Below are positions 1,013 through 45,015 of a stretch of 64,000 nt of DNA, piece by piece (positions within the stretch are counted from its first letter, which is position 1; every line of letters begins with the position of its first letter). The stretch spans positions 7,294 to 71,293 of the forward strand of contig JABJOE010000006.1 of NCBI GenBank assembly GCA_018664485.1. The letters are read 5' to 3'. This stretch comes from Candidatus Uhrbacteria bacterium. GTDB taxonomy: Bacteria; Patescibacteriota; Patescibacteriia; UBA9934. A program made the position numbers and the translations under genes. Below the pieces are notes generated by a model, which did not search any database, had not been told where the DNA came from, and was given only the letters and a program-made list of their open reading frames with translations.

Positions 1013-1045
1013 CAAAAAAGAACGGTGTCATCAACCGTTCTCTAT
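1013..1045 (-). terminator. Rho-independent terminator downstream of ftsA.
   Basis: On the minus strand: stem gaacggt, loop tgatgac, stem accgttc, followed by TTTTTTG. It lies about 35 nt after the ftsA stop. Confidence 0.5.
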
Positions 1046-1078: not shown

Positions 1079-2329
1079 TTATGGCACTAACGATTTCAAC
1101 CATGTTCGGATCTGCTCCCCAACCTGCCCGAAACCATCCCATTTAAGGAAACTTAGTCCTCGTCGCTGTGAACCACGAATGCTGTAACCCCAAATAGCCA
1201 ATCCAACGGCAGTTGCGTAGCTTGGATCCTTAACCTCATCTATAACGCTACTTACACCAACCGTCTGTCCGATAGTAGCTGGAAGACGCAAAACCCGTTT
1301 CGCAACGCTTGATACGCCCTGTAAATTCATCGTAGCTCCAGTAAGTACGATACCGACAGGAAGCATTCCAGATCGATCAATCTTACGCAATTCATCGTCC
1401 ACCGCCTCAAACAACTCTTCAACTCGCGCCTCAATAACCTCTGAGACAAAGCGAGCTTTTACAGGGTCTTCCTCAGACGAACCAAAGTCCTGTAGCGTGA
1501 ACACATCTTTACGATCGACATCATCTGGCGATGCATTTCCAATCCGCATCTTAATATCCTCCGCAACCTCAAGTGAAGTTTTCAACCCGATAGCAATATC
1601 ATTTGTAATGTGATCACCTCCAACTGGCAGAACAGCCGTATGGAGAATATCTCCCTCCTCGAAAACCGCCATGGTAGTGGTAGAAGCTCCGATATCAATC
1701 ACGCATACTCCCAACTCCTTTTGCCGGTTTGTGAGCACTGCCTCGGCAGTAGCAAGTGGCGTGAACACCAAGTCGTCGATATTCAAACCTGTCCTGTATA
1801 CACTTTTTGTAAGATTCTTAATGTGAGACGACAGTGTCTGGATAATAACTGCATCAACCTCTAAACGGATCCCATTCATGCCTACAGGGTCTTTAATACC
1901 CTGCTGACCGTCCACTGTGAAGCTTTTAGGGATAACATGGAGTATTTCGTAGTTTGAGGGTGTTGCAACAGTACGGGCGGCCTCAATAGCACGCTCAACG
2001 TCCTCTTCCTTAATCTCACCATCTCCACGGCCGACTCCAACCACACCCCTACTCTCTTGAACAAAAATATGATGCCCTGCGATAGACGTCCAAGCACTGT
2101 TGACTGCAACTCCTGTCATGCGCTCAGCACGCTCTAAAGCCTTTGAAATCGAAGAAACAGCATCTTCCATGCTGGAAATACTACCTTTATGGATCCCCTC
2201 CGACGGTACAGAAACCGCACCAATGATATGTAATTGTGCCTTACCCTCATCTGAAGGGACTGCCTGACCTACAACGACACGAATATGGGATGAACCCAGG
2301 TCAAGACCGGCGATTAAATCATCTGACAT
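1079..2329 (-). CDS. ftsA: Cell division protein FtsA (actin-like ATPase).
   Basis: 416 aa. N-terminus MSDDLIAGLDLGSSHIRVVVGQ... is the actin/HSP70 fold phosphate-1 motif. Lies immediately upstream of ftsZ on the same strand. Confidence 0.9.
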   Translation of the reverse strand: MSDDLIAGLDLGSSHIRVVVGQAVPSDEGKAQLHIIGAVSVPSEGIHKGSISSMEDAVSSISKALERAERMTGVAVNSAWTSIAGHHIFVQESRGVVGVGRGDGEIKEEDVERAIEAARTVATPSNYEILHVIPKSFTVDGQQGIKDPVGMNGIRLEVDAVIIQTLSSHIKNLTKSVYRTGLNIDDLVFTPLATAEAVLTNRQKELGVCVIDIGASTTTMAVFEEGDILHTAVLPVGGDHITNDIAIGLKTSLEVAEDIKMRIGNASPDDVDRKDVFTLQDFGSSEEDPVKARFVSEVIEARVEELFEAVDDELRKIDRSGMLPVGIVLTGATMNLQGVSSVAKRVLRLPATIGQTVGVSSVIDEVKDPSYATAVGLAIWGYSIRGSQRRGLSFLKWDGFGQVGEQIRTWLKSLVP

Positions 2330-2353
2330 AGTAATAGTATAGCCGACATTGCC

Positions 2354-2722
2354 TTATACGAACAGTTCCGCCAAGGCTGGCAGTAAAATCATTAACCCAA
2401 TGATAACTGATGTTATAGATGTAAGTAAAACGGCTCCAGCCATCATATCCTTCACTTCCTTTACCATGGGATTCAATCGAGGCTTTAATCCGTCTGTAAT
2501 TCGCTCTACGATACTGTTTACAACCTCCATTATTAATACGGATGCTGAAAGTAGGATGAGTATGACTTGCTCCCAAGTAGCGAGGTCCAGTAGAAAGATA
2601 AGTATTACAACTACGATCAGTCCTGCCAATTGCAGTCTAAAACTCTGCTCGTGTCGTGCAACATTTTTAAGTCCACGGATAGCGTGACTCAAACTTCTTC
2701 TAAACTGCTTTATTGAAATCAT
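2354..2722 (-). CDS. dgkA: Diacylglycerol kinase / undecaprenol kinase family membrane protein (DgkA-like).
   Basis: 122 aa with 3 predicted TM helices and an ...EVVNSIVERITD... core typical of prokaryotic DAGK. 4-nt overlap with ybeY, the classic ybeY-dgkA arrangement. Confidence 0.7.
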   Translation of the reverse strand: MISIKQFRRSLSHAIRGLKNVARHEQSFRLQLAGLIVVVILIFLLDLATWEQVILILLSASVLIMEVVNSIVERITDGLKPRLNPMVKEVKDMMAGAVLLTSITSVIIGLMILLPALAELFV

Positions 2723-3138
2723 ACTACTAGAACTTTATCGACAATATCATCTTGAATTTGAAACATCTTCTCCGCATCTTCTGACACCTCATGATCGTAT
2801 CCCAACACATGCAATATACCGTGAACGATGAGCATGGACACTTCGTCGCTTGCTCCGTTTGGCGCCTGCCTTTCCGCTTGTGCGTAGCAAATTGCAACGT
2901 CACCCAGAAGCTCTCCCGGGTCATGCATATAGGAAAACGAAAGCACGTCTGTAACTGAGTCCTTCCCTCGATACATCCGGTTTAATTTATGTATCTCACG
3001 TTCATCGACAAATCGCAAAGCGATAACTCCGTCCGCTTTTTGTGAATCGTTCACCAAACGAACAATGTTATCAAATCTACCTTCTGCCAATTGCTGATCA
3101 GAAGTTAAAGCCTCCTGATTCACATCGAGCGTTATCAC
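2719..3138 (-). CDS. ybeY: Endoribonuclease YbeY (rRNA maturation factor).
   Basis: 139 aa. HGILHVLGYDHE metal-binding H3xH5xH motif. Confidence 0.85.
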   Translation of the reverse strand: MITLDVNQEALTSDQQLAEGRFDNIVRLVNDSQKADGVIALRFVDEREIHKLNRMYRGKDSVTDVLSFSYMHDPGELLGDVAICYAQAERQAPNGASDEVSMLIVHGILHVLGYDHEVSEDAEKMFQIQDDIVDKVLVV

Positions 3139-4142
3139 AAAGCGATAATGTAAAAACTATTGATTAGCATCTGGAATGTCTGGAGGAAGTCAACGGTAAC
3201 CTCATCATCCAAATCATACGTGAAAGAATAGAAGAAACTGTCAGTAACCACGACCGATGTCCGCTCATCGCTACTCATATAGACCACATAGCCCTCCTTT
3301 GTAAGGAGTTCAATTGACATTGGGAAAGACGTTTCGATTGCAGGCGTTATAACTATAGAAAAGCTTGCATTTGTATTTGTGCTAACGACTACTTCTTGTA
3401 CTCCTTCGGCTGGATCTACCGCTTCGCTCACATCCCAGCCGGTTGGATGCGTAAATCTAAATACTTCGTCTGAAGACACAAACTCTTCCACGGCTCCGGT
3501 GTCCAAAAGCGTTGCCCCTGAAGTGCTCAATGGACTGTAACGATGGAAAACTTCATTACCATCTAGGAATGAATCACCGTCTGAATCTGGGTTTCGATCA
3601 TCTGTACCGTACAGATCTTCCTCAACATCTGTAAGGCCATCACTGTCGGTATCAACGCCAGGTCCCGGCTCTACAACATCTTCTGGGCGATCATCTTTTG
3701 AATCGCATACGTCACCCTTATCATCGTCGTCTATATCAGATTGGCTGGCGTTTGCATCTTCTGGACAGTTATCTTCACTGTCAATAATTCCATCTCCATC
3801 GATGTCGTCTGTCACCTCCTCTTCTTCTACGTTTAGAGATTGCACTACAAAATACCCAACCACAGCAAGTACAGTGATCAGAACTATTCCAACACCCAAA
3901 ATAATGAAAGGTGCCTTGCTTTTCTTTTTTGGCACAGGCTTTGGTGCAGGTTTCGGTTTTGGAACTGGTTTCGGCTTCGGCACAGGCTTAGGTGCTGGCT
4001 TTGGAAGTTCTTTCACCGTCGCCTTCTTCTGCGCGAATGATGCTGGCATTACATGAATTTCAACATCTGAAAGAAGCGACTTGCGCTCTTTCTCCTGCTT
4101 TGCTAGCTCTTCAGGTTTCATGTTTTTACCAGACTTCTTCAT
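3135..4142 (-). CDS. Membrane-anchored protein with a Pro/Lys-rich spacer and thrombospondin-type-3-like Ca-binding Asp repeats.
   Basis: 335 aa. PKPAPKPVPKPKPVPKPKP low-complexity segment, one TM helix (FIILGVGIVLITVLAVVGYFVV), then DGDGIIDSEDNCPED / DTDSDGLTDVEED / DSDGDSFLDGNEV DxDxDG repeats. Confidence 0.6.
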   Translation of the reverse strand: MKKSGKNMKPEELAKQEKERKSLLSDVEIHVMPASFAQKKATVKELPKPAPKPVPKPKPVPKPKPAPKPVPKKKSKAPFIILGVGIVLITVLAVVGYFVVQSLNVEEEEVTDDIDGDGIIDSEDNCPEDANASQSDIDDDDKGDVCDSKDDRPEDVVEPGPGVDTDSDGLTDVEEDLYGTDDRNPDSDGDSFLDGNEVFHRYSPLSTSGATLLDTGAVEEFVSSDEVFRFTHPTGWDVSEAVDPAEGVQEVVVSTNTNASFSIVITPAIETSFPMSIELLTKEGYVVYMSSDERTSVVVTDSFFYSFTYDLDDEVTVDFLQTFQMLINSFYIIAL

Positions 4143-4151
4143 AAAAAACGT

Positions 4152-4883
4152 CTATGGTTGATCAGGAATCTCGAACAGTTTTCCGTCACCATTTGGATTA
4201 AATCCACCTGCTACTTCTTGACCATCTAAATATCCATCTCCATCTGTATCAGCTTCAAGAGGATCTGTTCCGTAAACCTGAACCTCTTCACGATCTCCAA
4301 GTCCGTCTTTGTCTGTATCTAACTCGGAAGGGTCGGTACCCGCTACGATTTCTTCTGCGTCCGTTAGACCGTCACCATCGGAATCTACTTCCTCGGTTTC
4401 TTCCTCCGGATCTTCATCTTCAATAACCTCATCGTCCACAACTTCGTCATCTACCACCTCATCGGCAACCACTTCGTCATCTACTACCTCTACTGTTTCT
4501 TCATCGATAATCTCATCATCGATTGTAGATGGGCCAAAAATCAATGCATACGCAAGCCACCCTGCAACACTAATAATTACAAGAGCAACAATAACGATTA
4601 ATAGAATCTTACCAAACCCTGACTTACGTTTTGGCATCATTGGTGGTGCTACCGGGGACCCACCTGCGGACGGTGGGACTGGTACTGGCGCGCCCGTTGG
4701 TGCCTGTGCCACGGGAGCTGGTGCCGGAGTTGGCACGGGAGTAGGTACTGGCGCCGGTGCCGGGGTTGGCGCAGGTGCTGCGGCCGCTACTGGCAAATTC
4801 ACCGGAGCATCAAACATATCTTCAACGGGTGGTTGAGGTGCCGCTCCTGGTTTTGGTGTCTGGTCATCGAACATAATTAACAA
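4152..4883 (-). CDS. Membrane-anchored protein with a Pro/Ala-rich N-terminus, an acidic (DEVV)n spacer and a C-terminal thrombospondin-type-3-like repeat module.
   Basis: 243 aa. TM helix ILLIVIVALVIISVAGWLAYALIF. C-terminus DSDGDGLTDAEE...DTDKDGLGDREE...DTDGDGYLDGQEVAGGFNPNGDG. Confidence 0.6.
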   Translation of the reverse strand: MLIMFDDQTPKPGAAPQPPVEDMFDAPVNLPVAAAAPAPTPAPAPVPTPVPTPAPAPVAQAPTGAPVPVPPSAGGSPVAPPMMPKRKSGFGKILLIVIVALVIISVAGWLAYALIFGPSTIDDEIIDEETVEVVDDEVVADEVVDDEVVDDEVIEDEDPEEETEEVDSDGDGLTDAEEIVAGTDPSELDTDKDGLGDREEVQVYGTDPLEADTDGDGYLDGQEVAGGFNPNGDGKLFEIPDQP

Positions 4884-4907
4884 TAACAGTAACTATTTAC
4901 ATTAACA

Positions 4908-5852
4908 CTACTCGACTTCCGCTTCGGCCAAAGGATCAAACCCACCAGCGACTTCGTCTCCATCGGAGTAACCGTCACCATCTGTGTCAGCATTCGTTGG
5001 ATCAGTCTCATAATCGCGCAATTCATCATAGTCAGTCAGACCATCTGAATCTGTATCAACCATATCATCGCTCGTGCCGGCCTCACCTTCTTGAAGTAAA
5101 TTCAGTCCGTCACCGTCTTCATCGATTGATGAAAACATGTCCTTACATGACTCAATTGCAGAAGATGTAGCCAGCCAATTGCAAGCAGTTATATTACCAA
5201 CAATTACAGCTTCTTCCAGATCATTTTGGTCATTACACAGTGTGACATCTACTCCGCTCTTATTACAATTTCCGGATGAAGCTGCGTTAGCGCTTATAGC
5301 TAGCTGACAGCGACCAACCACACTCTCGTCATTCATTTTACTGCAGTCATCATACTCAAGCGAATCAACGATCGACTCAAACGAAACTGAATCGAAACAA
5401 TCATCTTGAGACTCACCTTCTAATAACTGACACACATCCGTATCGTCAGTTTCTTTCGCGATAAATAGAATACAATTCTCTGCAGCATCATCACTCGCGG
5501 ACTCAAGACACACAGACGGCTCCATGAGTTCTCGAGCGATGTCCGTCCAAACATGATCTACACAATACTGTTCATCCTCTTCCTCCTCGCATTCCTTAAG
5601 GTCTGCCTTAATCAATTCGTATACCTCTGAAATCTCATCGTTCGTCATCTCTTGTACGCTTGACCCGAGAAGTGCGCGAACACCCCAAACTGCCAACAAT
5701 GCAACTAGTATCAATATAAGAATTACAACAATGTACCGGACCAAAGGTCTATGAACTGGAGGTTGCGACTCACCCGTTCCCGATACCTCTACCGGCGCAA
5801 CTGGCTGTCCAGATGCATCAAGTTCATAAAATTGTTGATCTTTTGATTCCAT
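4908..5852 (-). CDS. Membrane-anchored Cys-containing protein with a C-terminal thrombospondin-type-3-like repeat module.
   Basis: 314 aa. TM helix YIVVILILILVALLAVWGV. C-terminus DEDGDGLN...DTDSDGLTDYDE...DTDGDGYSDGDEVAGGFDPL, the same terminal motif as 4152..4883. Confidence 0.6.
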   Translation of the reverse strand: MESKDQQFYELDASGQPVAPVEVSGTGESQPPVHRPLVRYIVVILILILVALLAVWGVRALLGSSVQEMTNDEISEVYELIKADLKECEEEEDEQYCVDHVWTDIARELMEPSVCLESASDDAAENCILFIAKETDDTDVCQLLEGESQDDCFDSVSFESIVDSLEYDDCSKMNDESVVGRCQLAISANAASSGNCNKSGVDVTLCNDQNDLEEAVIVGNITACNWLATSSAIESCKDMFSSIDEDGDGLNLLQEGEAGTSDDMVDTDSDGLTDYDELRDYETDPTNADTDGDGYSDGDEVAGGFDPLAEAEVE

Positions 5853-6032: not shown

Positions 6033-9000
6033 TTACGGTTCGCAATACCTGAATCTCATATCATCAAGCGAGACCGTTCCACCGCTATCATTGTCATCAA
6101 ATGAAATTCGAATTGGAATCTCCTGTGAGTTCTCGCCGTCACACGCAAACCCTGCGGGCCACGGAATCTCTACGTCGTCCCCCTCTGTAACGTTTCCACT
6201 TACAGCCTCACCGTCAATTACGTACGTGAAACGAATCGATACGATTGAATTTACAATCTCTTCATAGATCTCCTCCAACTCATCGGCTGATGAACCGTTA
6301 TGAGCATAGTCAACATCATTGTCATCATTCGGGTTACCAGAAGACCAACATGCCATTTGATCGATCAAATCAAGATCAACATAATCAGCGGCACAAGTTT
6401 CAGATGTAGCCGCACGCGCTACTGGGATCTCGACTAATTCAAGCGCGAAGTCGGCGACAGACTCAGCTATAGACATAACTTTCCATTCCTTGATATTCCA
6501 GGAGATACGTACAGGTGAAATCCATGGAGAGTATAACGTCTCTGCTGGACAGTCGAACGGACAGTCCGCGTATGTCTCTCCCACATCACAACTCCCATCA
6601 TTATTACATGAAGACGTACCGGAACCACTACCTGGGTTACATGTAGCATCACAGCCACCGCATGTCGTTATGTCAGCTACACCCCCTTCAGCATAACAGT
6701 CATACGTAGACACGCCATAGTATCCCGAACAACACTCCCATGAAATAACGCAGCTACTACTACAGCTAGATATATCTGAGCCGGTATCACCATCACAAGT
6801 TTCACCGTCTGCAGTATTTGTATATTCGTCACCACACTCGGATTCCTGACAGTCGGTAGCAGGATGATCATCTTCATCAGCTTCTTCGTCATAATTACAG
6901 TCTGCAGTTTCCGTTCCGCCTGAATCACACTCCTCTTCGCCATTAATTACTCCATCTCCACAAACCGGAGAGGTACACTCGTTGGTACAATCATCTTCGT
7001 CTACATCATTTCCATCATCACACTGTTCATCTGCAACATCATCGACTACTCCGTTTCCACACAAGGAATCCATCCACTCCTCCTCGTCCATCCAACCATC
7101 CTCCGTTCGATAATCATCGCAGAATGCATCTTCTACTGGCGACACTTCACTGTCAGACCCTGAATATAGGGCGACTGTGTAAATCTCGACCCCGTCATCC
7201 TTTAGCTGACATGCCATGAGTGCCGGGTCGATCTGTGACGCACCACAACTCTCACAACTCCATAAACCATCCGTCATCAATACAACAATTTGACGATCAT
7301 CGGTGCTAGAATAAGTAGTAAACGCTGTCTGAGCAGCCTTAAGTCCGTAGTAAGTATAAGTACCACTGCGTGCAATGTATGAAGCGACCTCAGACTGTGC
7401 ATATACGCTATTGTCTGCATCATAGAAGAAGCCATCGTCGACATTTGAAGCGTATGTATATTCAACTTCCTCAACCGCTCCACACGTCTCCGTATCTGGA
7501 TCACAATCAGAGTCTTCCATATAGTTGGTGAATCCAATGAACCCAATTTCTACGCCACTACCGAGACCTTCAAAGATTCCGTCAACCGAAGTCTGTAGAG
7601 AGTCGATCGTCGTATCCATTCGAGTTTCACCTTCACATTCAACAGACTCATCCTCTTCACATGTTGAGTCATAATGACAGCTTGTACCGTCGTCAGCACA
7701 AGTACCATCCCAGACGTATGCCATTGATCCAGACATATCCGTTGAGAAGATAATCTTTGTGTCTGGAATATCGAATTCGTAATCAACGTCGGCAGTTAAC
7801 CTTGTAGCTACAGTACACGCTGGGAAATAGACAGTCGCTGAGTTTCCGTAAGTAAGCAATGTTCCACTGACATCAGCATCGTATGAAATCATTTCGATTT
7901 CATTACTTCGTCTTGCGCCCAGCTCGTTAGTCTTCATCAAGAGTTGGTCGTTCTCGTAGGTAAACGGACAAGTAGACTCGCAACCATCTGCACAACTCGG
8001 AAGAATACATTCGCCATCTCCGTCGTCGTCTTCGCAGCCACTATCATTAAGGCACATCAGCCCATTATTATCACCACCATTACAGACACCCACATTGGAA
8101 CATCCATAATATGCCAAACTGTCAGGCCCCACGATTACAGCACCTTCGTCTTCTCGATCACACATTCCATACACGTTACCCTCGGGATATAACGATCCGT
8201 CCAACTGAGCGTACCAATAAGGTAGGTCGGTTCCATCACAAACTTCTTCATCTTCTATTATTGTATCTCCACAAAATGCTCCGGAGTACGTTACTTGAAC
8301 ACATGAATCGTTACAGTAAGAACATGTTGAGTCGTATTGAGAATCGCAAACCACTCCATTATCTGACCCTTCATCACATTGCTCTTCGCCATCATAAAGA
8401 TATCCATCTCCACAAACATTTAACTGACACTCGGTAGTACAGTCATCTGTAGAGTCATCGTTTCCGTCGTCACACTCCTCACCATCATCAACAACTCCAT
8501 CTCCACAATCGGATGATGCCACACAGCTAACACCCTGCCAGAATGCCGTTGTAGACCAAGGACTATTCCATCCACAAGTCTCACCACCTTCACCGTCATC
8601 GGCACAAGTGATAGTTCTAGTTGTTGGGAATGTTGAAGTTGAGCATACTCCGTCGTCCGTTCCACAATATGAGTTAGAAGTACACGGATAACCGATCAGA
8701 CTTTCAGTACCGGCCAAACATACTGTTGTTATCTCACATGCCTCAGACCATGACGAAGAACTATCTCCACATACCGCGCTGTCGCAGTCGGCATCGTCTT
8801 CACAAGCAGCACCTTCGTCAGTACCACCTACACATAATTCACCATCCCATGAGTCACTATTTCCATCACATACCTCTCCCTCACCATCATCAACTTCTCC
8901 GTCTCCACAGAATGAAGCGGCTCCTGAACAATCCCAGGCACAACTGCTATTAGGGTTTGAATTGTATGTTGAGTTTAAGTCAGTACATGCTGAACCTCCG

Positions 9001-12000
9001 TAGTTTAATCCTGACACTGAGCTTGATCCACAGTCACAAAGCTCTCCACCTGCAAGCGACCCATCTCCACAACTAAATGTAGAAGCATAAGTACAGTCAT
9101 TGTCACAGAATCCATATCTTCCGTTATATGAACCGTCGTCACATGTTTCACCAGTATCAATCACTCCGTTTCCACACTCAAACGCTTCGCATGTTGCGCC
9201 GTCTAGATCTTCACCGCCCAAACAGTCACTTGCACATGTCTGCGAGATTGAACCGTCAATATCATTTGTAGCGTCTCCGTCTCCGTCTGAGTCAACCGAA
9301 GCATCAGAGTCACAAGTAGCAGCGTCCATCTCCTGTCCGATTTCACAAATCTCAGTACCACCTATGACGCCATCTCCACAGATCGTCTCATCACCCCACC
9401 TTGTATTTGCACAGAAATACGATGGCGATGCGAAACCGTCACCACTTCCAGTCTTTGCATAAACCTGGAAGTTGTAGCTGTCAGATGTGTCCTGATCAAG
9501 ATCTTCTGTCCACGGAGTTCCGTGGAATTCCAACTCAGCACCCATGTAATATCCACCCTTACCATAAGCGCGGTAGTGGTAAACATTAGTCTCACGGTTA
9601 GGACAGAGATATTCTCCGTTAGTCTGATTCACACATGTATCTGCATCGTAATCAGTGTAATGACCATCTTCTCCACAGTTCACATATGCGTTTAGCGGAT
9701 CTGAAGGAGGCTCTTCTCCAAGTTCAGATCGGAGCTGTTCATTCCAAGAGCTCCACGCGGAAGAACTTAATGAAGCCACAAACGTTCCAGACTCAAGCTG
9801 AGGCGTTGCAGGAACACATTCTTCTGAATCTGGGCATTGACTATCACTTGTACATGTTTGAGAAGTTGTGTCGGAACAATATCCGTTTACATCTCCGTAG
9901 TCTTCGATCATTGCCGCGAGATCAGTAAGGTCAGTCAAACGAGTCATGTCACGCATGACCTTTGCAGCCTGATCGTCACATCTCTCACTATTCGCCCAAT
10001 CACAATCCTGGTCAGATACACATGTGTCATCCGTATATGAACCACCTGAGTCCATGCACAATGCCGTATCATCAAAGTTAGTATTAAATTCAAGGTTTGA
10101 AATCAACTGATTGTAGACTTCAACAGTCTCAGATGAAGCCCCCGAGTTGTAAGAGATAACAAACATATCCGAATACAACACAGAAGATGTCCTGTTCGGG
10201 AACGACACATAAGTAGTACGCCCATCTTGAACCGCCTTATATCCGCCAGCTACTGCAATTTCTGAAGGTGAACCAGCAAAACCTTGCTCCGTGTACCACG
10301 CCATTGGGCTTAGGTACTCTGAGTTTGAAGCAATACGAATTCCGATAGCGTCTCCCGTTGACTCGCCGTCAGCAAGTAGACGGAAGAAGTACTCTTTAAT
10401 GACATCATCAGTTTCAGTGTCTTCTGTCAGAACAACATCAACCTCTGGGAGATCATCATCTTCTGTTTCAGCTCCACTGTCCATACAATAGTATGTGGAG
10501 AAGTTCATCCAACCGATACCAGCTCTTGCACCATTTCCAGTACCAGTACTGTCATCAATGAATGGGAAGTCAGTAATTGCTGGCCATGGATTTTCACAAA
10601 CCATAGCTGTAGCAGATGTCGTTCCACTATGAGACTCGCCTTCAGTCTCTGACTGTACATCAACAGTAATAGTTGCAGTAGCGGTGATATTCACCTCTCC
10701 GTTTTCACCGGCCGCCGCATAGTTGGAGTCAGCCGTTCCGTCAGTGCTTGAACTCTCACTTTGCTGCGCTAGAATCTCCTCACCGGCGTCATCAGAACTC
10801 CAAGTAGACCACGTCCAATCATAGACGCTGCTAATAGGTTCAATTTGCTGTTTGATTCCAGTCTGATAAGAGAAACCGGCAGCCGTGTAGTCATGATCTT
10901 CTGAAACCTGCGTATAAACCCCAGGACTATCTTCGTCTGAGTCGGTTACCTCAACTACATCCATCAAACAAAGTTCATCATATGTTGTGAAATCAACATG
11001 ATCACTTTCCATTTCCACTCCATAGAATGACAACGCGCCCTCCTTATCTACATCAGTGTCAGACAAATCATCACCAACTACATATATTGTGTAGTCAGAA
11101 AGAGCTTCAAGGACAGTATCGTAATGGAATAAAACCTTGTAATCTCCGCTCTCCTCTAGGCTTTGAGATACGCTCGTAATTTCAACTGCACAATCTCCGC
11201 TTGACTGAGCTTGTACAACTCCAGTTCCAAATAGAGCACCAACACGGAAGAATGCACGCGCGAGCCAGCTATTTCCAACAGTTGCAGTTTCGGCATGTGC
11301 AATAGATGTATGTGTTTCCGGACAAGAACCGGAACCTATATCTAGAACAAGATACATGTTCTGTATATCCTCACCATCATCCAAATCGGTATAGAAGAAA
11401 CTTCCTAAGTCCATCTTTTCACTGAACAATCCGTAAATTGCAGCGTTACGGCAAGCGTCTGATCCGTTTGGATAAAGGCTTACCTCTGGACGCGCCATAC
11501 AACATGAGTTGTCCGCAGGTCCGTAATCACTTTCACAATCACTATCAACTTCCGCTACACATGAAAGATAAAGCGCAGTGCTGTCTGAAACGTCCTCATA
11601 CGTAACTTCAATCAAAGTTTCTGCCAATCGGCTATCTGTATCAACCTGCTCGGCAGCAGATGTCATGATCTCAACAAGCTGAAGAGGATCGATTATACCG
11701 TCACCTCCAGTTGCGTCATAAGTAGGATCTTCACATGATTCGAACTCTCCGGTACCAGCCTCACCGTCTCCACAGACTGACGGACTTGCATATGAGGTTG
11801 ATGCACCCTCCCAAAGACATTCATCACTACACCCTTCTGTTCCGTCACAATCCTCTCCCTCACCATATGCCCCTTGGTCAACGGCGTTATCTCCACAATC
11901 TCCATAATCTCCATCTGCACCTTCACGCAAACATATTGATGAACAACCGTCTTCGTCTTCAACTCCCCAGTCATCGCAGGTTTCGTAAGGTGTATCAATT

Positions 12001-15000
12001 ACTCCATCTCCACACTCGGCAGCGACTGACGTAAGTGCTGTAGAGCCTTCATTTAAACAAATTGCAGAACAACCATCACCAGATGAAGTACCTCCGTCAT
12101 CGCAATCCTCACCACCAACACTGTCGGAATGACCAACGCTTCCGTTTCCACAAGTAGCGCCCGCAGCTGCAGACCCTTCGTTGATACAAGATGAAGAACA
12201 TCCATCTCCGTCGGTAATATTACTGTCATCACACTCTTCTCCCGCATATGAGGAGTCCACGTCTACAACGCCATCTCCACAACAACCAGATCCAACGGCA
12301 TCACATGTGTCAGCGTAGGTACAGTCTGCATCAATAGCACAAACATCTCCACTCACAGAACACACACCTTCCTCTGAATCATCCGCGATTTCACATGTCT
12401 CGGCACAATCTTCATCGTCTGAACATGAGTCACCGCTTGAAGCACAGGTAAATGAACAGCTATTAGTTCCTTCCGCTAAACACTCTGAAGAGCATCCGTC
12501 TCCGTTTGTAACGTTTCCGTCATCACAGTCTTCTCCAGTTTCAATATCACCATCTCCACAAATTGCAGTGTAGACCTCGGAACCACCAGCAAGACACGAC
12601 TCGGTACAACCAGGCGCTATACCGTCTAAATCAACATCAAATAGTGAGGAGTTTATTTCAGTCCACTCTGCAACATCAACGTCATCAATAGGAACTGACC
12701 ATTCATAGTCATAGCTATAAGCAGATAACTGCTGACCAGTGGATGAACATTCATCCTGCTGACCATATGGCTGTACAAAATATTCAACAGTTTCACCAAT
12801 TGCCTCGGCTGTATAATTCTCAGGTGAAACTTCGAGCCGATCAACAGTACACAGAGACTCATCATCTTTTGTTGAAAATACCCAAGAGAAATCATCACCG
12901 TAGTTAGTGTCAGTTAGAGCAACCCCACTACTAGACTCAACGTCTCCGGAAATAATCACACGGAAATATGTATCAGCTGTCAGCTGGGCGTCCCATCCAG
13001 ATTCAGTAATTGTAAGTACAAATTCCTCACACTCAGACGATGTACAGCCAGCAGTGACGTCTACCTGAGTCAGTCCGACACACAACTCATTAGAACACTC
13101 GTACATGGTCACCATACCTGTGTCCTGAATTGAGCTGTCCATGTCGATATTGAAAGATGCACCGATCCCACTGTTAACACAAGCAGTATTACAGTTCGGA
13201 TAGTAGCTTGTTACATACGGATCTCTGTAGTCAATCTCAAGATCAGCGTCATCACCAATTCCGCTATCGTCTTCAATGGCATTTACAACACTCTCCCCTT
13301 CCGCAAGAGCTTCCGCTACAGCACAGGAGTCGTTCAAACTTGTATCATCACAGATTCCTTCCGTAAGTGACGCGTATGAAGATGTGTCTAAACTCCATGT
13401 CCATGCATATGTAGCACCACTTAACACCTGACAATCAGCAACAGGAAGCGCTTCATATTCAGTTGTTTCACCCTGCTCCTCAAGCAATTCAGAACTAGGG
13501 CTCACGATAACTCGCTCAATTTCACAATCGGCTGAGCTGTCATCTGTTAGGAACTCCCAGGTAACATCGCTATCCATCTGCACACCTTCTTCTGATTCAA
13601 CATCGCTTGAAACGGTTACTAAGTACCGTGTCTCGGTTGAAAAGCCACTGTGATCAATAGTGAAAGACGTAGCTGTTGAGCTTGATGTAATAGTTGGGGC
13701 GTCCATTGTGAATGTAGAGACGTCTTCACATGAAGAATCCGCACACTCTTCCACCGTAATATATTCAGATGTGAGGAAGTCTTCGTCCATAAGCTCCGTA
13801 AACGTTGCGCGAATCACAGCGTCAACACATACCTCATCTGTAAATCTCTCGTTTGGAACAGCTGAAATATCATCATCAGAACACTCAACTACGATTCCTG
13901 GCGTCTCAGGGATTGATCCTGTTCCAAAATACCAACTATAACCACCGTCCACAGTAGCCTCTTCGTCTTCCTCATCATCAGCACCAATCTCAAAATTTGA
14001 AGAGTTACTATCCTCCCCTTCATTATTCGTTATAAAAACTGGACCTGTTACCGCATCTGACGGAACAGATGTAACTATTTCGTCGTTTGACCAATCGTCA
14101 TCCTCAACGCTCGCGCTTGAACCGTCGTAGAATTCAATTGACCCTGTGCTTGATCCGAAATTGTCTCCATAGATAGTTACTGTGTCTCCAGACTCGCCGT
14201 CGTCTGGATCAATAGCACAAATACCAGGGGTTGGATCATCTTCTGTTACTTCAAAATCTACAGCATCGGACTCACCGCCGCTCCGCTTTTCAATATACAA
14301 CTCATAATCCCCAGCCTCCACGTCGTCTTCATTTGAAAATTCTTCCGGAACGATAATGACGATCTCAGAAGCACTCCAAAAACTTTCAGAACATGCGTCC
14401 GGGAACTCAATACTTCCCTGTGCTGCACCTAACGTTGGATGTTCAAACCAAACACTTCCAACGGAAGTTCCAAATCCAGAACCTGAAATGGTTACGTATT
14501 GTCCGATACCTCCCTCTTCCGGATCGATTGCGGAAATGATTGGTGAGTCATCATCCGTATCTTCCACTCCAAAACTGACAGTATTAGATTCAACTCCGTC
14601 AACCGTAATTGAAACGTCATAATAATCATTCACAGTAACAGACGGAACCGTTGCAGCTACATCAGTTGCGGACCATGACGTGTAAGAACCAGCCTCAGTC
14701 TCATCCTCATCTTCAGCTGTAAAAGTAATAACTGAATCACTCTGCGAATCTCCGAAATTCGTTCCCTCGATCGCAAATGCATCATTCACTTCAGCCTCGT
14801 TCGGCGAAATATCACACAAATTAGGACGAACGGTAGTATTCACGTCAAAGTCATCAATGATAGCACCGTTATCGTCGTCAGTTGTTTCCTCGTAGTCATT
14901 GCGAGTTACGATTGTAATTGGACCGTCTCCAGCACCTTCTGGCACCTCAACAATCACTTCATCATCACTCCAACCGTCTCCACATGAAGGAATCGTAGCC

Positions 15001-16423: not shown

Positions 16424-18319
16424 CTAACTACTGAAGTAGGAACAGTCAGTTGATTGAGCCTCACCGTTACAACAGAAAGGTTCTGTGTCACTCGTTCCAC
16501 AAGAACCACCCGAATCATCCGGCCCTTCTCCTGGAACGTAACAGTTTTGATATTGATTCCTCACTCCTTCCGTTACATCCACTGAGTAAAGATAGCTAGT
16601 TCCGTCGGTGTAACACTGCAGATCAGTATTACATGCCTCGCCCGACTCACAATCACCGTCTACAGCACAACTCTCACCCGTAAGTGCATCGTCGGTGGAA
16701 GCGAGGAATACTCCGTGCCGGATACCTGCCTGAGTTGCAACTGCAGTCTGCTCGGACGATACAACTTCATCGCCGTACTCATCGATTGAGTCAGTGCTAA
16801 CTACGTACCACATTTCGTGTGACGGGTTTGGTGTCGCGACAATATATTCACTCGACATTGTGTTACTCATCATGATGGAGTCAAACAAAACCGTAATCTC
16901 CTGATCCAACTCGACATTCTCCTCTAAAATATCTGGACCAATTGATTCAATCTCCGGCGCTTCCAAATTTACGTCGTCAGATGTTGAAAATGACCAGTCA
17001 TAGTCGTCTCCAGCTTCACCATCACCGTCACCGTCCAATGCATTTGCTGATACATCAACGATTCCGTCATATGGTGTCTCGGCCTGCGGCGCCGCATCTT
17101 CGTCAACGGTAGCGGCAATAACATCGACCGTAATATCTTCAAGTCCAGGCAAACAATAAATGAGTTCACCACACGAGTTTTCTCCACATTCATCGTCGGT
17201 AGTGTACGTAACAGTTTTGTAACCATTTGAAATAGCGTACTCACCAGTTAGCGGAACTGAGTCACCAATATGCGTTTGGATATTGCTAAATCCACTACCA
17301 CTCTCACGAGTTCCGGTTGACACTGTCGGATCCACAGCTTCTGAGAATGTAATTTGCACAACAATGTTTCTGTCATACTCGTCACCTGCTTCAGGCGACA
17401 CGCTCACAACATATGGCGGCGTTAGGTCAATTTCAGTTCCAACTTCGAATGACCACTCATACCCGCCAGTGTTTACCACCTGGTCGCCATCCTTATCTCC
17501 AACATCCTCCGAAATGAATACCGTGTACGAAGTATCTTCTGTTGAAGATCCAAGATAATCCTCTGGTGAGAAGCTAAACGTCTTTAGATCTTCCGTAAAC
17601 GTCACGCTCACTTCTTCAGATGTCAGGATACCTTCTTCTCCGTCCTCAGATCGATAAATCAAAATGTTGTCTGTATTTAATGTTGTCGCAACCGTATCGT
17701 CACTCGTATCATCCGGTGTACCGTTGGTGTCGTAGCCATCGATAAGCCCCTCAATGTCCATCGCACTCTTAAACGTAACTAGAATATTGATATTTCTCGC
17801 AGCACCAGTCGCATTGCGCGCTGGGAAGTGGTCGCGGATTCCACCCTGCCCAAGAGATCCAGAACTTCGCTCGATTGATGCCGAGCTATCACTTCCGCTT
17901 CCAGAACCGCTTCCGCCACCTCCACCGATCAATGCACCCGTAAGCGCGCTAATGATAAAAGCTGTGATCGCATAAGATGCCATAACTATCACAAGTCCGA
18001 CAACTCCGTTGATCATCCACTTCTTTGCTTTTTCAACTTTGTCAGCATCACCACCGGCTGTCATCCAAAGGAAACCAGCGTAGATGATAATGATCAGAAG
18101 AACGATTCCAAGTGCACTCAAGAATACACTTACTAACGTCCCTATAACTTCTGGCAGGCTTGCGGTACTAAGACCTGACGCACCTCCGGCTACAGCGAGC
18201 TCCGACGATTGCGCAAGAACAGCGCTCGGAATAAACGCAAAAATACCGGTGACCAGAGTGATCCCGAATAGGAGAACAAGCGCTTTTGATAAACGCATCG
18301 TTATTTGATTCACATGCAT
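16424..18319 (-). CDS. Paralog (631 aa) of the giant surface protein, with the same N-terminal anchor module and Ig-like domain but a short Cys-containing ectodomain.
   Basis: N-terminus MRLSKALVLLFGITLVTGIFAFIPSAVLA, then ...YAGFLWMTAGGDADKVEKAKKWMINGVVGLVIVMASYAITAFII, then GGGGGSGSGSGSDSS. A 25-nt identical stretch (18045-18069 vs 16126-16150) encodes the WMTAGGDA loop. The TPPYVVSVSPEAGDEYDRNIVVQITFSEAVD bacterial Ig-like motif matches the giant's ISPEGEVVIRNIQVQITFSRSVD. Confidence 0.8.
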   Translation of the reverse strand: MHVNQITMRLSKALVLLFGITLVTGIFAFIPSAVLAQSSELAVAGGASGLSTASLPEVIGTLVSVFLSALGIVLLIIIIYAGFLWMTAGGDADKVEKAKKWMINGVVGLVIVMASYAITAFIISALTGALIGGGGGSGSGSGSDSSASIERSSGSLGQGGIRDHFPARNATGAARNINILVTFKSAMDIEGLIDGYDTNGTPDDTSDDTVATTLNTDNILIYRSEDGEEGILTSEEVSVTFTEDLKTFSFSPEDYLGSSTEDTSYTVFISEDVGDKDGDQVVNTGGYEWSFEVGTEIDLTPPYVVSVSPEAGDEYDRNIVVQITFSEAVDPTVSTGTRESGSGFSNIQTHIGDSVPLTGEYAISNGYKTVTYTTDDECGENSCGELIYCLPGLEDITVDVIAATVDEDAAPQAETPYDGIVDVSANALDGDGDGEAGDDYDWSFSTSDDVNLEAPEIESIGPDILEENVELDQEITVLFDSIMMSNTMSSEYIVATPNPSHEMWYVVSTDSIDEYGDEVVSSEQTAVATQAGIRHGVFLASTDDALTGESCAVDGDCESGEACNTDLQCYTDGTSYLYSVDVTEGVRNQYQNCYVPGEGPDDSGGSCGTSDTEPFCCNGEAQSTDCSYFSS

Positions 18320-19827: not shown

Positions 19828-20445
19828 CTAGTTAAGCTGCAATGTAATCTCGCCAGAAACCGTATTTACTCTCACGGCAAAAGAAAACTCGTCGTCAACA
19901 CATTCATTCGTGCAGTACGAGTGCACACCTTCATACGTTGCAATGTACAAACCGTCTACCGTCTCTTCCGCTACCAAACACGCACTACCATCTAGGTGAG
20001 CGTACAGTCCTATGATTTGCGTACGCAGCAAAGCGTCAACAATCTCGCTTGGAGAAACTTTTTCGAGCAACTCTTGAGTCGCTGTCGTAATTACAACTTC
20101 ATCTTCCCCTTCACCAAAACCAGTAGCACTATGAACTGAAACATCACCAAACATCTGCTCATCAACGAAAATTTCCCCCGTCGAATCCTGCCACAGTACT
20201 TGCTCATCGCCGAGTGTCCAATCATTTAAAATATTTAACGGCGCCAGATCGGTACCACTAATTTCCCGCGCCGTAATTAATGTCTGCTCGTAACGGTCGA
20301 AAGAGTCTTGTGTAATTGATTCTGCTAAGCACTCACCTTCCCCAGACAACACAACATCCCCAGATTTATTGTCCGAGTAATAAACAGCTAGCCCGATAAT
20401 GAGAATAAAAGCTAGAACGCCGATTGCTAAAATCATTTTTTTCAT
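19828..20445 (-). CDS. Hypothetical secreted or membrane-anchored protein.
   Basis: 205 aa. N-terminal signal/anchor MKKMILAIGVLAFILIIGLAVYY. Start is 1 nt from the Nudix gene's end. Confidence 0.55.
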   Translation of the reverse strand: MKKMILAIGVLAFILIIGLAVYYSDNKSGDVVLSGEGECLAESITQDSFDRYEQTLITAREISGTDLAPLNILNDWTLGDEQVLWQDSTGEIFVDEQMFGDVSVHSATGFGEGEDEVVITTATQELLEKVSPSEIVDALLRTQIIGLYAHLDGSACLVAEETVDGLYIATYEGVHSYCTNECVDDEFSFAVRVNTVSGEITLQLN

Positions 20446-20462
20446 ATTTATTTCAAAACTTT

Positions 20463-20996
20463 TTAAACAAACTCAGTTAGCCTTCTCTCAACCATCTCGA
20501 CAACTTCATCGATAGACAAATTACTTGTATCAATTCTTTCGACTGAAGAGTCATCGACTCTATGTTCGTGATACCACGCGATGTTACGTTCCACACGAGA
20601 GCGAGGACTTGGTGGATTCGGGCTACTTTTCTGACGCGCGAGGACACGTCTCATCGCCGTCTCATCGTCGGTGAATAGTTCAATATGCAAAAACTTATAG
20701 CCAAACTCTTCTGCGATCTTTCGAAACTGTGCAGGTTCTTCGGGCCTCAACGTTTGTGGAAGAACGATACTTATTCCATGCTTACAGTAATTTCTGGTAA
20801 GTGATCGCACACCATCACGAACGATAGCGTTATCGCCGTCGCCACGTACAAAGTCTGAAATCTGCCACTTAATATCATCCATATCAAAGACAGCTACACG
20901 CGAAAGCTTTTCCTTAAGCTTCCTACCGACCGTAGTTTTTCCAGCACCAACCATGCCGGAGATGAGTAATATGAATTGTGTATTGAGTGCAATCAT
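20463..20996 (-). CDS. P-loop NTPase / small-molecule kinase-like protein (AAA_33 / zeta-toxin-like fold).
   Basis: 177 aa. Walker A LISGMVGAGKTTVGRKL at the N-terminus. Confidence 0.65.
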   Translation of the reverse strand: MIALNTQFILLISGMVGAGKTTVGRKLKEKLSRVAVFDMDDIKWQISDFVRGDGDNAIVRDGVRSLTRNYCKHGISIVLPQTLRPEEPAQFRKIAEEFGYKFLHIELFTDDETAMRRVLARQKSSPNPPSPRSRVERNIAWYHEHRVDDSSVERIDTSNLSIDEVVEMVERRLTEFV

Positions 20997-44905: not shown

Positions 44906-45015
44906 GCATTACGCCTGTAGCCATGCGACCGAGTGGTCCTTGAGCACAGCCGTCAATTCCCACACCTCGTCTAACGGGGGGTGGGAATTTACATTTAAAA
45001 AAACATCTGCATTGG

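What the first reader, a model, noticed from the sequence alone, without database searches (positions are those of the whole stretch)
3135..5852. Three consecutive membrane-anchored proteins with thrombospondin-type-3-like Ca-binding modules directly downstream of the giant adhesin genes
Each protein has a low-complexity Pro-rich or acidic spacer, one TM helix and DxDxDG Ca-binding repeats. Two end in the near-identical motif DTDGDGY(L/S)DG(Q/D)EVAGGF(N/D)P. They are co-oriented with and immediately follow the giant genes, upstream of ybeY-dgkA-ftsA-ftsZ. This looks like a dedicated surface or Ca-dependent accessory set for the adhesins rather than housekeeping.
Basis: partly seen in the sequence, partly recalled or inferred. 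Interest (0 to 1): 0.65.

Follow-up and report, generated by a model that had tools for sequence, protein, structure and literature searches.

The report
Conserved calcium-repeat membrane protein trio
Three real membrane proteins with calcium-binding repeats belong to conserved, uncharacterised families that, in about 140 related ultra-small (Patescibacteria/CPR) bacteria, sit between a giant pilin-anchored surface-protein gene and cell-division or cell-shape genes, so they are probably part of a core surface apparatus of unknown function.

Summary
Three minus-strand genes encode single-pass membrane proteins: P1 (5852..4908), P2 (4874..4152) and P3 (4142..3135). Each has C-terminal DxDxDGxxD repeats. 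Pfam TSP3_bac scores P1 at 36.6 bits and P2 at 67.7 bits (cut-off 25). P3 carries a homologous two-repeat module plus a confidently modelled PsbP/Mog1-like domain. P1 also has a helical repeat with 12 invariant cysteines.

The genome is a roughly 1 Mb Candidatus Uhrbacteria (Patescibacteria). P2 and P3 are the conserved core. Across 137 related loci, 80 of 80 with enough upstream DNA have a giant ORF just upstream, and 113 of 114 have a TSP3 protein next to P3. YbeY follows in about 106 of 114, and FtsA lies within the flank in 67 of 67. Where ybeY-ftsAZ is absent or displaced, giant-P2-P3 stays together; in two loci it is followed by mreC-mreD-PBP2.

The giant and the 631-aa protein are anchored by VirB2-like pilin domains. 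P2 and P3 have conserved cytoplasmic N-terminal peptide motifs.

The "accessory set for the giant protein" reading is partly supported. The link to the giant gene is real, but these are core genes packed with housekeeping and division genes. Function is inferred. No paper found describes this cluster.

The parts
4908..5852 (-). P1 gene (314 aa): short cytoplasmic N-tail, one TM helix, Cys-rich helical repeat, three TSP3-type repeats
   Evidence: ORF. The exact protein is in NCBI as a hypothetical protein of Candidatus Uhrbacteria. TSP3_bac 36.6 bits against a cut-off of 25. Family alignment A3.
5799..5837 (-). P1 conserved N-terminal motif QQFYELDxxGQPV (residues 6-18), predicted cytoplasmic
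   Evidence: Conserved in alignment A3 and in the locus family consensus.
5679..5735 (-). P1 transmembrane helix (residues 40-58)
   Evidence: KD19 of 3.14. AF2 helix spans residues 38-63.
5127..5645 (-). P1 ectodomain: helical hairpin repeat with 12 invariant Cys (88, 97, 115, 127, 141, 152, 170, 182, 196, 206, 224, 236)
   Evidence: The Cys are invariant in A3. AF2 block-mean pLDDT is about 87-97 and the domain is all-helical. No significant PDB fold match.
4929..5126 (-). P1 TSP3 module (residues 243-308), ending DTDGDGYSDGDEVAGGFDPL
   Evidence: Part of the module (45 aligned residues) superposes on the S. aureus Bap B domain 7c7r (rmsd 0.8 A, 49% identity).
4152..4874 (-). P2 gene (240 aa from ATG 4874; alternative TTG at 4883): cytoplasmic tail, TM helix, acidic spacer, three TSP3_bac repeats
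   Evidence: (67.7 bits).
4788..4874 (-). P2 conserved N-terminal cytoplasmic motifs (MFDDQ ... PPVEDMF ... NLPV; family consensus MFD..EPEDIF)
   Evidence: Conserved in close and distant orthologues.
4536..4607 (-). P2 transmembrane helix (residues 90-113 of the 240-aa form)
   Evidence: KD19 of 3.04. Across the family, K+R averages 2.3 on the N side and 1.4 on the C side.
4164..4388 (-). P2 three TSP3_bac repeats plus the C-terminal GFNPNGDGKLFEIP motif
3135..4142 (-). P3 gene (335 aa): cytoplasmic tail, TM helix, variable spacer, two TSP3 repeats, PsbP-like domain. Its stop overlaps the ybeY start by 4 bp.
4023..4064 (-). P3 conserved N-terminal cytoplasmic motif VEIHVMPASFAQKK (family consensus I-x-V-[MI]-P-x-x-[FY]-x-G)
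   Evidence: M32 and P33 are invariant in A1. The corresponding Ile and Pro are invariant in the diverse alignment A2.
3915..4007 (-). P3 KPxP Pro/Lys-rich linker (residues 46-76), N-terminal to the TM helix and so predicted cytoplasmic
   Evidence: Sequence. Across the family, K+R averages 3.66 on the N side and 1.29 on the C side.
3843..3914 (-). P3 transmembrane helix (residues 77-100)
   Evidence: KD19 of 2.83. AF2 helix spans residues 77-103.
3702..3806 (-). P3 lineage-specific insertion resembling a eukaryote-type TSP_3 repeat, with two Cys (residues 113-147)
   Evidence: PF02412 at 22.5 bits, below the cut-off of 25. Among the sequences shown in A1, present only in the closest relatives, P0003 and P0005. 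Low pLDDT.
3528..3656 (-). P3 invariant two-repeat TSP3 module: DTDSDGLTDVEEDLYGTDDRNPDSDGDSFLDGNEVFHRYSPL
   Evidence: Invariant columns in A1. 53% identical to the P2 repeats, E 5e-10. pLDDT above 90.
3138..3530 (-). P3 C-terminal beta-rich domain with a PsbP/Mog1-like fold (residues 205-335)
   Evidence: AF2 pLDDT mostly above 93. Foldseek PDB hits to CyanoP, PsbP, Mog1 and Tsi3: E 1e-4, probability 1.0, TM 0.45-0.5. Weak PsbP HMM hits.
6033..16385 (-). Giant surface protein (3450 aa): signal peptide, VirB2/TrbC-like pilin hairpin, Big_5, Big_7, TIG, Cys-rich acidic repeats, weak VWA
   Evidence: Orthologues carry T4SS_pilin, and one also VWA.
16424..18319 (-). 631-aa paralogue: VirB2-like pilin N-domain plus Big_5
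   Evidence: T4SS_pilin 39.4 bits. Orthologues lie upstream of the giant in L137, L143 and L162.
1079..3138 (-). Downstream co-oriented genes: ybeY (3138..2719), dgkA (2722..2354), ftsA (2329..1079). A terminator-like hairpin follows at 1043..1017.
   Evidence: Pfam, 4-bp overlaps, terminator.

Best explanation
P1, P2 and P3 are bitopic (N-in/C-out) membrane proteins. Their ectodomains end in a shared, homologous Ca2+-binding TSP3-repeat module. Together with the VirB2-like-pilin-anchored giant protein, and its 631-aa paralogue, they form a conserved cell-surface apparatus of Uhrbacteria-like Patescibacteria.

Proposed mechanism:
- The TSP3 repeats fold and stiffen only when loaded with Ca2+, as in thrombospondin, OmpA-family TSP3 repeats and Bap.
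- The repeats present three different heads just outside the membrane: a disulfide-stapled helical repeat (P1), a C-terminal GYNPNGxGKLF peptide (P2) and a PsbP-like domain (P3).
- These heads dock or organise the acidic, Cys-rich, VWA-containing giant protein, or link it to the wall.
- The Pro-rich cytoplasmic tails carry conserved N-terminal peptide motifs that connect the assembly to an unidentified cytoplasmic partner.

Shown here:
- The genes, the TSP3 repeats and the folds.
- The topology prediction.
- Family conservation.
- The near-universal order giant -> (P1) -> P2 -> P3, with tight, operon-like packing.

Inferred: Ca2+ binding, physical association with the giant protein, and any partner of the cytoplasmic tails.
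For: - TSP3_bac repeats score above the Pfam cut-off in P1 and P2. The motif is far beyond chance and is unique to these ORFs in the window.
- The module is homologous in all three proteins. It superposes on the Bap B domain, whose matched stretch is, from memory, the Ca-binding EF-hand-like region.
- P3 is a full-length conserved family, with a confidently modelled TSP3 plus PsbP-like unit.
- P1 has 12 invariant Cys, which points to an oxidising extracytoplasmic location.
- The positive-inside bias puts the N-tails in the cytoplasm.
- Synteny: 80 of 80 loci have a giant ORF upstream (78 homologous) and 113 of 114 have an adjacent TSP3 protein. Giant orthologues with T4SS_pilin (and VWA in one of the two) end only 1-3 bp before the P1 start in two other genomes.
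- Giant-P2-P3 persists where the downstream genes differ.
Against: - There is no direct evidence of interaction, of Ca2+ binding or of expression.
- The same loci conserve ybeY-dgkA-ftsA-ftsZ about equally well. Conserved order may therefore be inherited synteny in small, slowly rearranging genomes. ybeY, which sits between P3 and ftsA, has no known division role (my own knowledge), so adjacency here need not mean shared function.
- All loci were selected through P3, so the reverse test (giant orthologues lacking P2/P3) was not done. The attempt failed.
- In the window a 180-bp gap with a plausible promoter separates the giant gene from P1.
- P1 is missing from many lineages.
Confidence: 0.45

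Rival explanations
1. P1-P3 are lineage-specific divisome/elongasome accessory proteins, functional analogues of bitopic FtsQ/L/B/N or ZipA-type proteins. Their cytoplasmic N-terminal peptides would bind FtsA, FtsZ or MreB-associated machinery, and their ectodomains would act on the wall. Association with the giant gene would be secondary.
For: - P3 overlaps ybeY by 4 bp, and the run P1..ftsA has no terminator-like site until after ftsA.
- FtsA lies within the flank in 67 of 67 loci, and within 2.5 kb in 65.
- In the one lineage that lost the ftsAZ neighbourhood, the cluster is directly followed by mreC-mreD-PBP2.
- All three proteins are N-in bitopic, with flexible Pro-rich tails ending in conserved short motifs.
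Against: - No POTRA, SPOR, FtsL/FtsB-like or other division-related Pfam or NCBIfam hit.
- The tail motifs resemble the local FtsZ C-terminal peptide IPAFIRRKMM only vaguely.
- ybeY and dgkA intervene.
- In L112, L136 and L139 about 6 kb of unrelated genes separate P3 from ftsA while giant-P2-P3 stays intact.
- Ca-binding TSP3 repeats are not known in divisome proteins (my own knowledge).
Confidence: 0.17
2. They are independent, generic Ca-binding envelope proteins, for example wall or cation-binding spacers. They would have no specific partnership with either the giant protein or the division genes, and the gene order would be inherited synteny in a reduced genome.
For: - TSP3_bac repeats occur in many unrelated envelope proteins, such as OmpA-family proteins and huge multi-repeat proteins.
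- The conserved block also contains functionally unrelated genes: ybeY, dgkA, nrdR and yqeY.
- All sampled genomes belong to one Patescibacteria radiation (record titles).
Against: - Order is kept across orthologues down to about 25-30% identity in P3.
- It survives at least two independent rearrangements of the downstream region.
- Intergenic gaps are minimal.
- The conserved cytoplasmic motifs argue for a specific partner.
Confidence: 0.28

Closest known systems
Bacterial TSP3-repeat (PF18884) envelope proteins, especially OmpA-family proteins of Bacteroidota, Ignavibacteria and Acidobacteriota
   Same: The same DxDxDGxxDxxE repeat. The P1 tail is 50-64% identical to repeats in proteins carrying PF00691 plus PF18884. 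All are extracytoplasmic, acidic and presumed to bind Ca2+.
   Different: P1-P3 have no OmpA_C or beta-barrel domain. They are anchored by an N-terminal signal-anchor helix in a Patescibacteria cell. They have only 2-3 repeats, distinct heads and conserved cytoplasmic tails.
Myxococcus TSP3-repeat surface proteins CglD and MtsC/MtsD (NCBIfam NF033765, NF047638, NF047639)
   Same: Partial hits limited to the TSP3 repeats. The named families are annotated as gliding-motility or cell-cohesion proteins. The neighbouring giant protein carries the myxo-type cysteine-rich acidic repeat (TIGR02232, 57 bits).
   Different: Scores of 14-29 bits against cut-offs of 350-800, so these are not members. The anchors differ (lipoprotein or MYXO-CTERM), as do size and context.
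Staphylococcus aureus Bap B domain (PDB 7c7r, 7c7u)
   Same: Part of the P1 TSP3 module superposes on Bap at 0.8 A over 45 residues with 49% identity. P2 also hits Bap by sequence. From memory, the matched Bap stretch is the EF-hand-like Ca-binding region, and in Bap Ca2+ switches the protein between ordered and aggregation-prone states.
   Different: Only this short module is shared. Bap is a large, wall-anchored biofilm protein.
PsbP / CyanoP / Mog1 / Tsi3 fold superfamily
   Same: The P3 C-terminal domain has this fold (Foldseek probability 1.0, E 1e-4 to 1e-2). There are weak HMM hits to PsbP and PsbP_2.
   Different: 9-13% identity and TM only 0.45-0.5. HMM scores are below the cut-offs. 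There is no photosystem context, and the domain is fused to TSP3 repeats and a membrane anchor.
VirB2/TrbC-like pilins of Patescibacteria type IV secretion systems (PF18895; PMC12102498)
   Same: The giant and the 631-aa proteins begin with a signal peptide plus a two-helix pilin domain above the Pfam cut-off. Two such genes lie in tandem, as in the reported pilin arrays.
   Different: Here the pilin domain is fused to ectodomains of about 500-3300 aa. No VirB4, VirB6 or other T4SS gene was found among the window ORFs scanned. The paper does not describe such fusions or the TSP3 partners.
Bitopic divisome proteins with peptide-bearing flexible tails (FtsN, ZipA-like logic)
   Same: Single-pass proteins encoded next to ftsA-ftsZ, with a disordered Pro-rich tether ending in a short conserved motif.
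   Different: No homology. The ectodomains are Ca-binding repeats rather than SPOR or POTRA domains. Binding to FtsA or FtsZ is untested.

Membership tests
Bacterial TSP3 repeat, Pfam PF18884 | Whole-protein HMM score at or above the gathering cut-off (25 bits) | tested here: met
   P1 scores 36.6 bits and P2 67.7 bits. The window P3 gives no PF18884 hit at E<=1. However, its module is 53% identical to the P2 repeats, and the P3 orthologue in L085 scores 32.3 bits. Membership is therefore direct for P1 and P2 and indirect for P3.
Bacterial TSP3 repeat, Pfam PF18884 | Repeated DxDxDGxxDxxE Ca-coordinating motif | tested here: met
   2, 3 and 2 exact D.D.D[GK]..D motifs. None of 5000 shuffles reaches these counts. 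The Asp positions are invariant in A1 and A3.
Bacterial TSP3 repeat, Pfam PF18884 | Actual Ca2+ binding | not testable with these tools
   Needs ITC, CD or a structure of the purified ectodomains.
Eukaryote-type thrombospondin type 3 repeat, Pfam PF02412 | HMM score at or above the cut-off (25 bits), with the Cys-containing repeat | tested here: not met
   P3 residues 112-134 score 22.5 bits against a cut-off of 25. The segment has two Cys. It is a low-confidence, lineage-specific insertion.
PsbP family (PF01789 / PF18933 / NF040946) | HMM score at or above the cut-off | tested here: not met
   13.2 bits against 23.5, 17.1 against 60, and 22.2 against 27 for the L085 orthologue.
PsbP/Mog1-like fold | Structural similarity of a confident model to solved members | tested here: inconclusive
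OmpA-family TSP3 proteins | C-terminal OmpA peptidoglycan-binding domain (PF00691) | tested here: not met
   No PF00691 hit in P1-P3. It is present in the heterologous hits.
Divisome bitopic proteins (FtsQ/DivIB, FtsL, FtsB, FtsN) | POTRA, SPOR or FtsL/FtsB-type domains | tested here: not met
   No such Pfam or NCBIfam hit at E<=1 or E<=0.1.
Divisome bitopic proteins (FtsQ/DivIB, FtsL, FtsB, FtsN) | N-in single-pass topology and a gene position next to ftsA-ftsZ | tested here: met
   (topology prediction). (FtsA within the flank in 67 of 67 loci).
VirB2/TrbC-like T4SS pilin (the neighbouring giant and 631-aa proteins) | PF18895 at or above the cut-off (26.6 bits), with a signal peptide and two TM helices | tested here: met
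   32.9 and 39.4 bits. The sequences show a signal peptide plus a two-helix hairpin.
VirB2/TrbC-like T4SS pilin (the neighbouring giant and 631-aa proteins) | Adjacent T4SS machinery (VirB4, VirB6 and others) | tested here: not met
   The 30 other window ORFs scanned are housekeeping genes or have no Pfam hit; none is a T4SS component. The rest of the genome was not examined.

The most novel reading that the evidence does not exclude
The giant pilin-anchored protein plus P2/P3 (and P1) would be a Patescibacteria-specific envelope-morphogenesis module. The conserved cytoplasmic peptides (EPEDIF in P2, IxV[MI]PxxFYG in P3) would tether a Ca2+-stabilised surface coat to the FtsA/FtsZ ring or the MreC/PBP2 elongation machinery. 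Deployment of the giant surface protein would then be coupled to septal or lateral wall growth. This would be a previously unknown link between cytoskeleton and surface layer in ultra-small bacteria that seem to lack recognisable FtsQ/L/B/N-type adaptors.
Probability: 0.15. Interest if true: 0.8.

Novelty: new variant of a known kind. Interest (0 to 1): 0.5.

Why it matters
Patescibacteria (CPR) make up a large share of bacterial diversity, and their envelopes and division machinery are poorly understood. This locus defines three uncharacterised protein families. P2 and P3 behave as core genes of a large Uhrbacteria-like radiation. They are always encoded with a giant, VirB2-pilin-anchored surface protein and next to cell-division or cell-shape operons.

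If the families form a complex, they give a concrete handle on how these tiny cells build and anchor their surface. The constructs are short, expressible ectodomains and defined peptide motifs. That surface is the interface through which these organisms are thought to interact with hosts.

If the cytoplasmic tails bind FtsA, FtsZ or Mre proteins, the module would link surface assembly to the cell cycle. If neither holds, the result is still useful: a well-defined family annotation (TSP3 plus PsbP-like) and a strong synteny marker for this clade.

Tried and rejected
**Rejected readings**
1. Chance or non-coding ORFs. The exact proteins are called in 11 contigs. There are hundreds of full-length homologues and confident AF2 models.
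2. OmpA-like, FtsQ/FtsN-like, anti-sigma or sortase-type architectures. No supporting domains were found.
3. P3 as a true PsbP. The HMM scores are below the cut-offs and there is no photosystem context.
4. The tail motifs as copies of the FtsZ C-terminal peptide. The resemblance to IPAFIRRKMM is only vague. This is kept as speculation only.
5. Pro-rich segments as extracellular stalks. They precede the TM helix and sit on the positively charged side.
6. RNA elements in the intergenic gaps. Rfam finds only three tRNAs, far away.

**Searches that led nowhere**
- A homologue search with the giant's most conserved core, aimed at residues ~2000-2300, returned nothing, not even itself. The submitted coordinates were in frame, but the translation shows they began some 80-90 residues downstream of residue 1990, so they covered only part of that core. 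The reverse co-occurrence test could not be run.
- Literature searches for Patescibacteria with thrombospondin, divisome, giant or pilin terms found no description of this cluster. Only PMC12102498, on VirB2-like pilins, is relevant.

Full report
**What is there.** The interval 3135-5852 holds three consecutive minus-strand ORFs.
- P1: 5852..4908, 314 aa.
- P2: 4883..4152. It is better started at ATG 4874 (240 aa), as gene callers do and as the family N-terminus "MFD" requires.
- P3: 4142..3135, 335 aa.

Upstream on the same strand are a 631-aa gene (18319..16424) and a 3450-aa gene (16385..6033). Downstream are ybeY (3138..2719), dgkA (2722..2354) and ftsA (2329..1079), followed by ftsZ and nrdR. 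P3/ybeY and ybeY/dgkA overlap by 4 bp. P1-P2 and P2-P3 are 33 and 9 bp apart. The only terminator-like hairpin on this strand follows ftsA, at 1043..1017. A 180-bp gap with a plausible TTGCTA-N18-TATAAG promoter separates the giant gene from P1. In two other genomes that gap is only 1-3 bp.

**Source.** The exact proteins occur on a 986-kb contig and several short contigs. P1 is in NCBI as a hypothetical protein of Candidatus Uhrbacteria. The 30 other window ORFs scanned are housekeeping genes or have no Pfam hit. This is a small-genome Patescibacteria (CPR) organism.

**Check of the observation.** Each protein has one strongly hydrophobic helix. The DxDxD[GK]xxD motif occurs 2, 3 and 2 times. 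It never reaches those counts in 5000 shuffles and occurs in no other ORF of the 64-kb window.

Pfam TSP3_bac scores P1 at 36.6 bits and P2 at 67.7 bits, against a cut-off of 25. P3 hits the eukaryote-type TSP_3 just below threshold, at 22.5 against 25. That hit lies in an insertion which, among the sequences shown, is present only in its closest relatives.

The near-identical endings of P1 and P2 are real. The modules are 56% identical over 68 aa (E 1e-18). P3 carries the same module, 53% identical over 43 aa (E 5e-10).

**Anatomy.** The positive-inside bias across the families puts the N-termini in the cytoplasm. For P3, K+R averages 3.66 on the N side and 1.29 on the C side; for P2 it is 2.3 and 1.4. 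The 12 invariant cysteines of P1 agree with this. The Pro-rich stretches are therefore cytoplasmic tethers, not surface stalks.

Each family has a conserved short motif at the tip of that tail.
- P1: QQFYEL.
- P2: MFD...EPEDIF.
- P3: I-x-V-[MI]-P-x-x-[FY]-x-G, with the Ile and Pro invariant even in a diverse alignment.

The three ectodomains differ.
- P1 is an all-helical, disulfide-stapled hairpin repeat (model mean pLDDT 87) with no significant PDB match. Only its TSP3 module finds a match: 45 of its residues superpose on the S. aureus Bap B domain at 0.8 A.
- P2 is a variable acidic spacer, three TSP3 repeats and a conserved GYNPNGxGKLF end.
- P3 has an invariant two-repeat TSP3 module packed against a C-terminal domain with a PsbP/CyanoP/Mog1/Tsi3-like fold. 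pLDDT is above 90 over residues ~160-335, Foldseek E is 1e-4, and TM is 0.45-0.5.

**The neighbours.** Both upstream proteins begin with a signal peptide and a VirB2/TrbC-like two-helix pilin domain (PF18895, 32.9 and 39.4 bits). Next come Ig-like Big_5, Big_7 and TIG domains, myxo-type cysteine-rich acidic repeats (TIGR02232, 57 bits) and DUF4215. A weak VWA domain lies near the C-terminus. VWA is clear in an orthologue. VirB2-like pilins are known to be widespread in Patescibacteria T4SS loci (PMC12102498). No T4SS machinery was found among the window ORFs scanned, and giant fusions of this kind are not discussed in that paper.

**Related loci.** P3 is a full-length conserved family. There are 406 hits, 300-370 aa long, named Patescibacteria or Uhrbacteria where named at all. 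A profile search of 1.84 billion representatives gives 1374 hits at E<=1e-30, of which most of the top 150 are full-length family members.

I fetched 80 species-representative genome loci and 80 metagenome loci, the latter seeded on a distant member. I then scored six-frame ORFs with phmmer against the window proteins. Results for the 137 loci that carry P3:
- 80 of 80 with at least 6 kb upstream have an ORF of at least 800 aa ending within 4 kb upstream, and 78 of these are homologous to the giant.
- 113 of 114 have a TSP3 protein immediately upstream.
- ybeY is adjacent downstream in about 106 of 114. Eight of the 14 apparent exceptions are ORF-overlap artefacts.
- FtsA lies within the flank in 67 of 67.

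P2 plus P3 is the universal core. The Cys-rich P1 is confined to the Uhrbacteria-like subgroup. Other lineages have a different small TSP3 protein, or none, at that position.

The exceptions are informative. In L085 and L086 the P3 homologue is followed directly by mreC-mreD-PBP2. L085, which has upstream sequence, reads yqeY -> giant -> P2 -> P3 -> mreC-mreD-PBP2. In L112, L136 and L139, about 6 kb of other genes (probably clpP, secDF-like genes and a prepilin-peptidase-like gene, judged by eye from N-terminal sequences) separate P3 from ftsA-ftsZ. L135 shows the same start before its contig ends. In L085, L135, L136 and L139 the giant-P2-P3 unit is intact; L086 and L112 lack enough upstream sequence to show the giant.

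**Interpretation.** The linkage to the giant gene is somewhat more robust than the linkage to ybeY-ftsAZ, because it survives the downstream rearrangements.

These are nevertheless not an optional adhesin accessory set "rather than housekeeping". They are core genes, packed and probably co-transcribed with ybeY-dgkA-ftsA. After rearrangement they again sit next to wall-morphogenesis genes.

My best explanation (confidence about 0.45) is a Ca2+-stabilised, membrane-anchored ectodomain set that partners the pilin-anchored giant protein in a conserved surface apparatus, with cytoplasmic peptide motifs contacting an unknown intracellular partner. There are two rivals:
- A lineage-specific divisome/elongasome role (about 0.17).
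- Independent envelope proteins whose order is merely inherited (about 0.28).

All functional steps are inferred: Ca2+ binding, complex formation and the tail partners.

**Comparison with known systems.** The repeat places P1 and P2 in Pfam TSP3_bac, and P3 by homology of its module. None of the three is an OmpA-family protein, because no PF00691 domain is present. None is a CglD, MtsC or MtsD member, because scores are far below the cut-offs. P3 is not a PsbP family member by HMM. None carries a known divisome domain.

The combination has not been described in the papers I could search. It consists of three families with cytoplasmic motif-bearing tails, a PsbP-like or disulfide-helical head, and obligatory placement after a VirB2-anchored giant protein.

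I rate it a new variant of a known kind: TSP3-type Ca-binding envelope proteins in a new, conserved system context. The finding is of moderate interest and opens a testable question about envelope organisation in CPR bacteria.

**Limits.**
- All related loci were chosen through P3, so giant orthologues without P2/P3 would have been missed. The attempt to search with the giant's conserved core returned nothing, and its coordinates covered only part of that core.
- Taxonomic breadth rests on record titles: Uhrbacteria, Buchananbacteria, Parcubacteria SG8_24 and "Patescibacteria group". Many are TPA MAGs mislabelled as Gammaproteobacteria. From memory only, these names are orders of GTDB class ABY1.

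Noticed in passing
window 6033-16385 and 16424-18319 (minus strand): Both large proteins start with a signal peptide plus a VirB2/TrbC-like T4SS pilin hairpin (PF18895), fused to ectodomains of about 500 and 3300 aa. A pilin domain appears to serve as the membrane or filament anchor of a giant protein, with no T4SS genes nearby.
   Followed up: partly
window ~9500-10400 (giant residues ~2000-2300): This is the most conserved stretch of the giant protein among distant orthologues (51 of 55 loci), yet it has no Pfam hit. A homologue search aimed at it found nothing, not even the protein itself; the submitted coordinates covered only part of the stretch.
   Followed up: partly
window 3702-3806 (P3 residues 113-147): A eukaryote-type TSP_3-like segment with two Cys is inserted in the variable spacer. 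Among the sequences shown it is present only in the window protein and its nearest relatives. Other lineages carry what look like fn3-like or Cys-rich inserts at the same place (those two inserts judged by eye).
   Followed up: partly
L085 1369-14040; L086 60-5381: In this more distant Patescibacteria lineage the P3 homologue is directly followed by mreC, a mreD-like gene and a PBP2-type transpeptidase instead of ybeY-dgkA-ftsA-ftsZ. In L085 the giant and P2 precede P3; L086 lacks that upstream sequence.
   Followed up: partly
L136 9311-9562; L139 9122-9397: A small single-TM ORF (83-91 aa) sits between the giant gene and P2 in this lineage. Between P3 and ftsA lie genes that look, from their N-terminal sequences only, like clpP (opposite strand), SecD/F, a ~650-aa membrane protein and a prepilin peptidase.
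   Followed up: no
window 43907-45833: A local GC rise (0.53 against about 0.45 for the window) covers two plus-strand ORFs of 332 and 239 aa with no Pfam hit. Three tRNA genes follow at 46680-47205.
   Followed up: no
window 19828-21532 (minus strand): Between yqeY and the pilin-anchored proteins lie two ORFs without Pfam hits (179 and 205 aa), a zeta-toxin/AAA_33-like kinase (177 aa) and a NUDIX hydrolase. yqeY lies directly or closely upstream of the giant gene in L085, L094 and L099.
   Followed up: no
window 22760-24820 (+) and 36657-39140 (-): A 686-aa protein has Ycf48/PSII_BNR-like repeats (70 bits), and an 827-aa protein has no Pfam hit at all.
   Followed up: no
L006, L008, L010, L012 and many other genome-contig loci: Many MAG records carrying this Patescibacteria-type cluster are titled 'uncultured Gammaproteobacteria bacterium' (TPA assemblies). 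This looks like a taxonomic mislabel in the records.
   Followed up: no
FtsZ orthologues in L006-L130: The FtsZ C-terminal peptide is almost invariant across these genomes, (E/G)IPAFIR(R/K)KMM, and follows a long Pro/Gln-rich linker.
   Followed up: no
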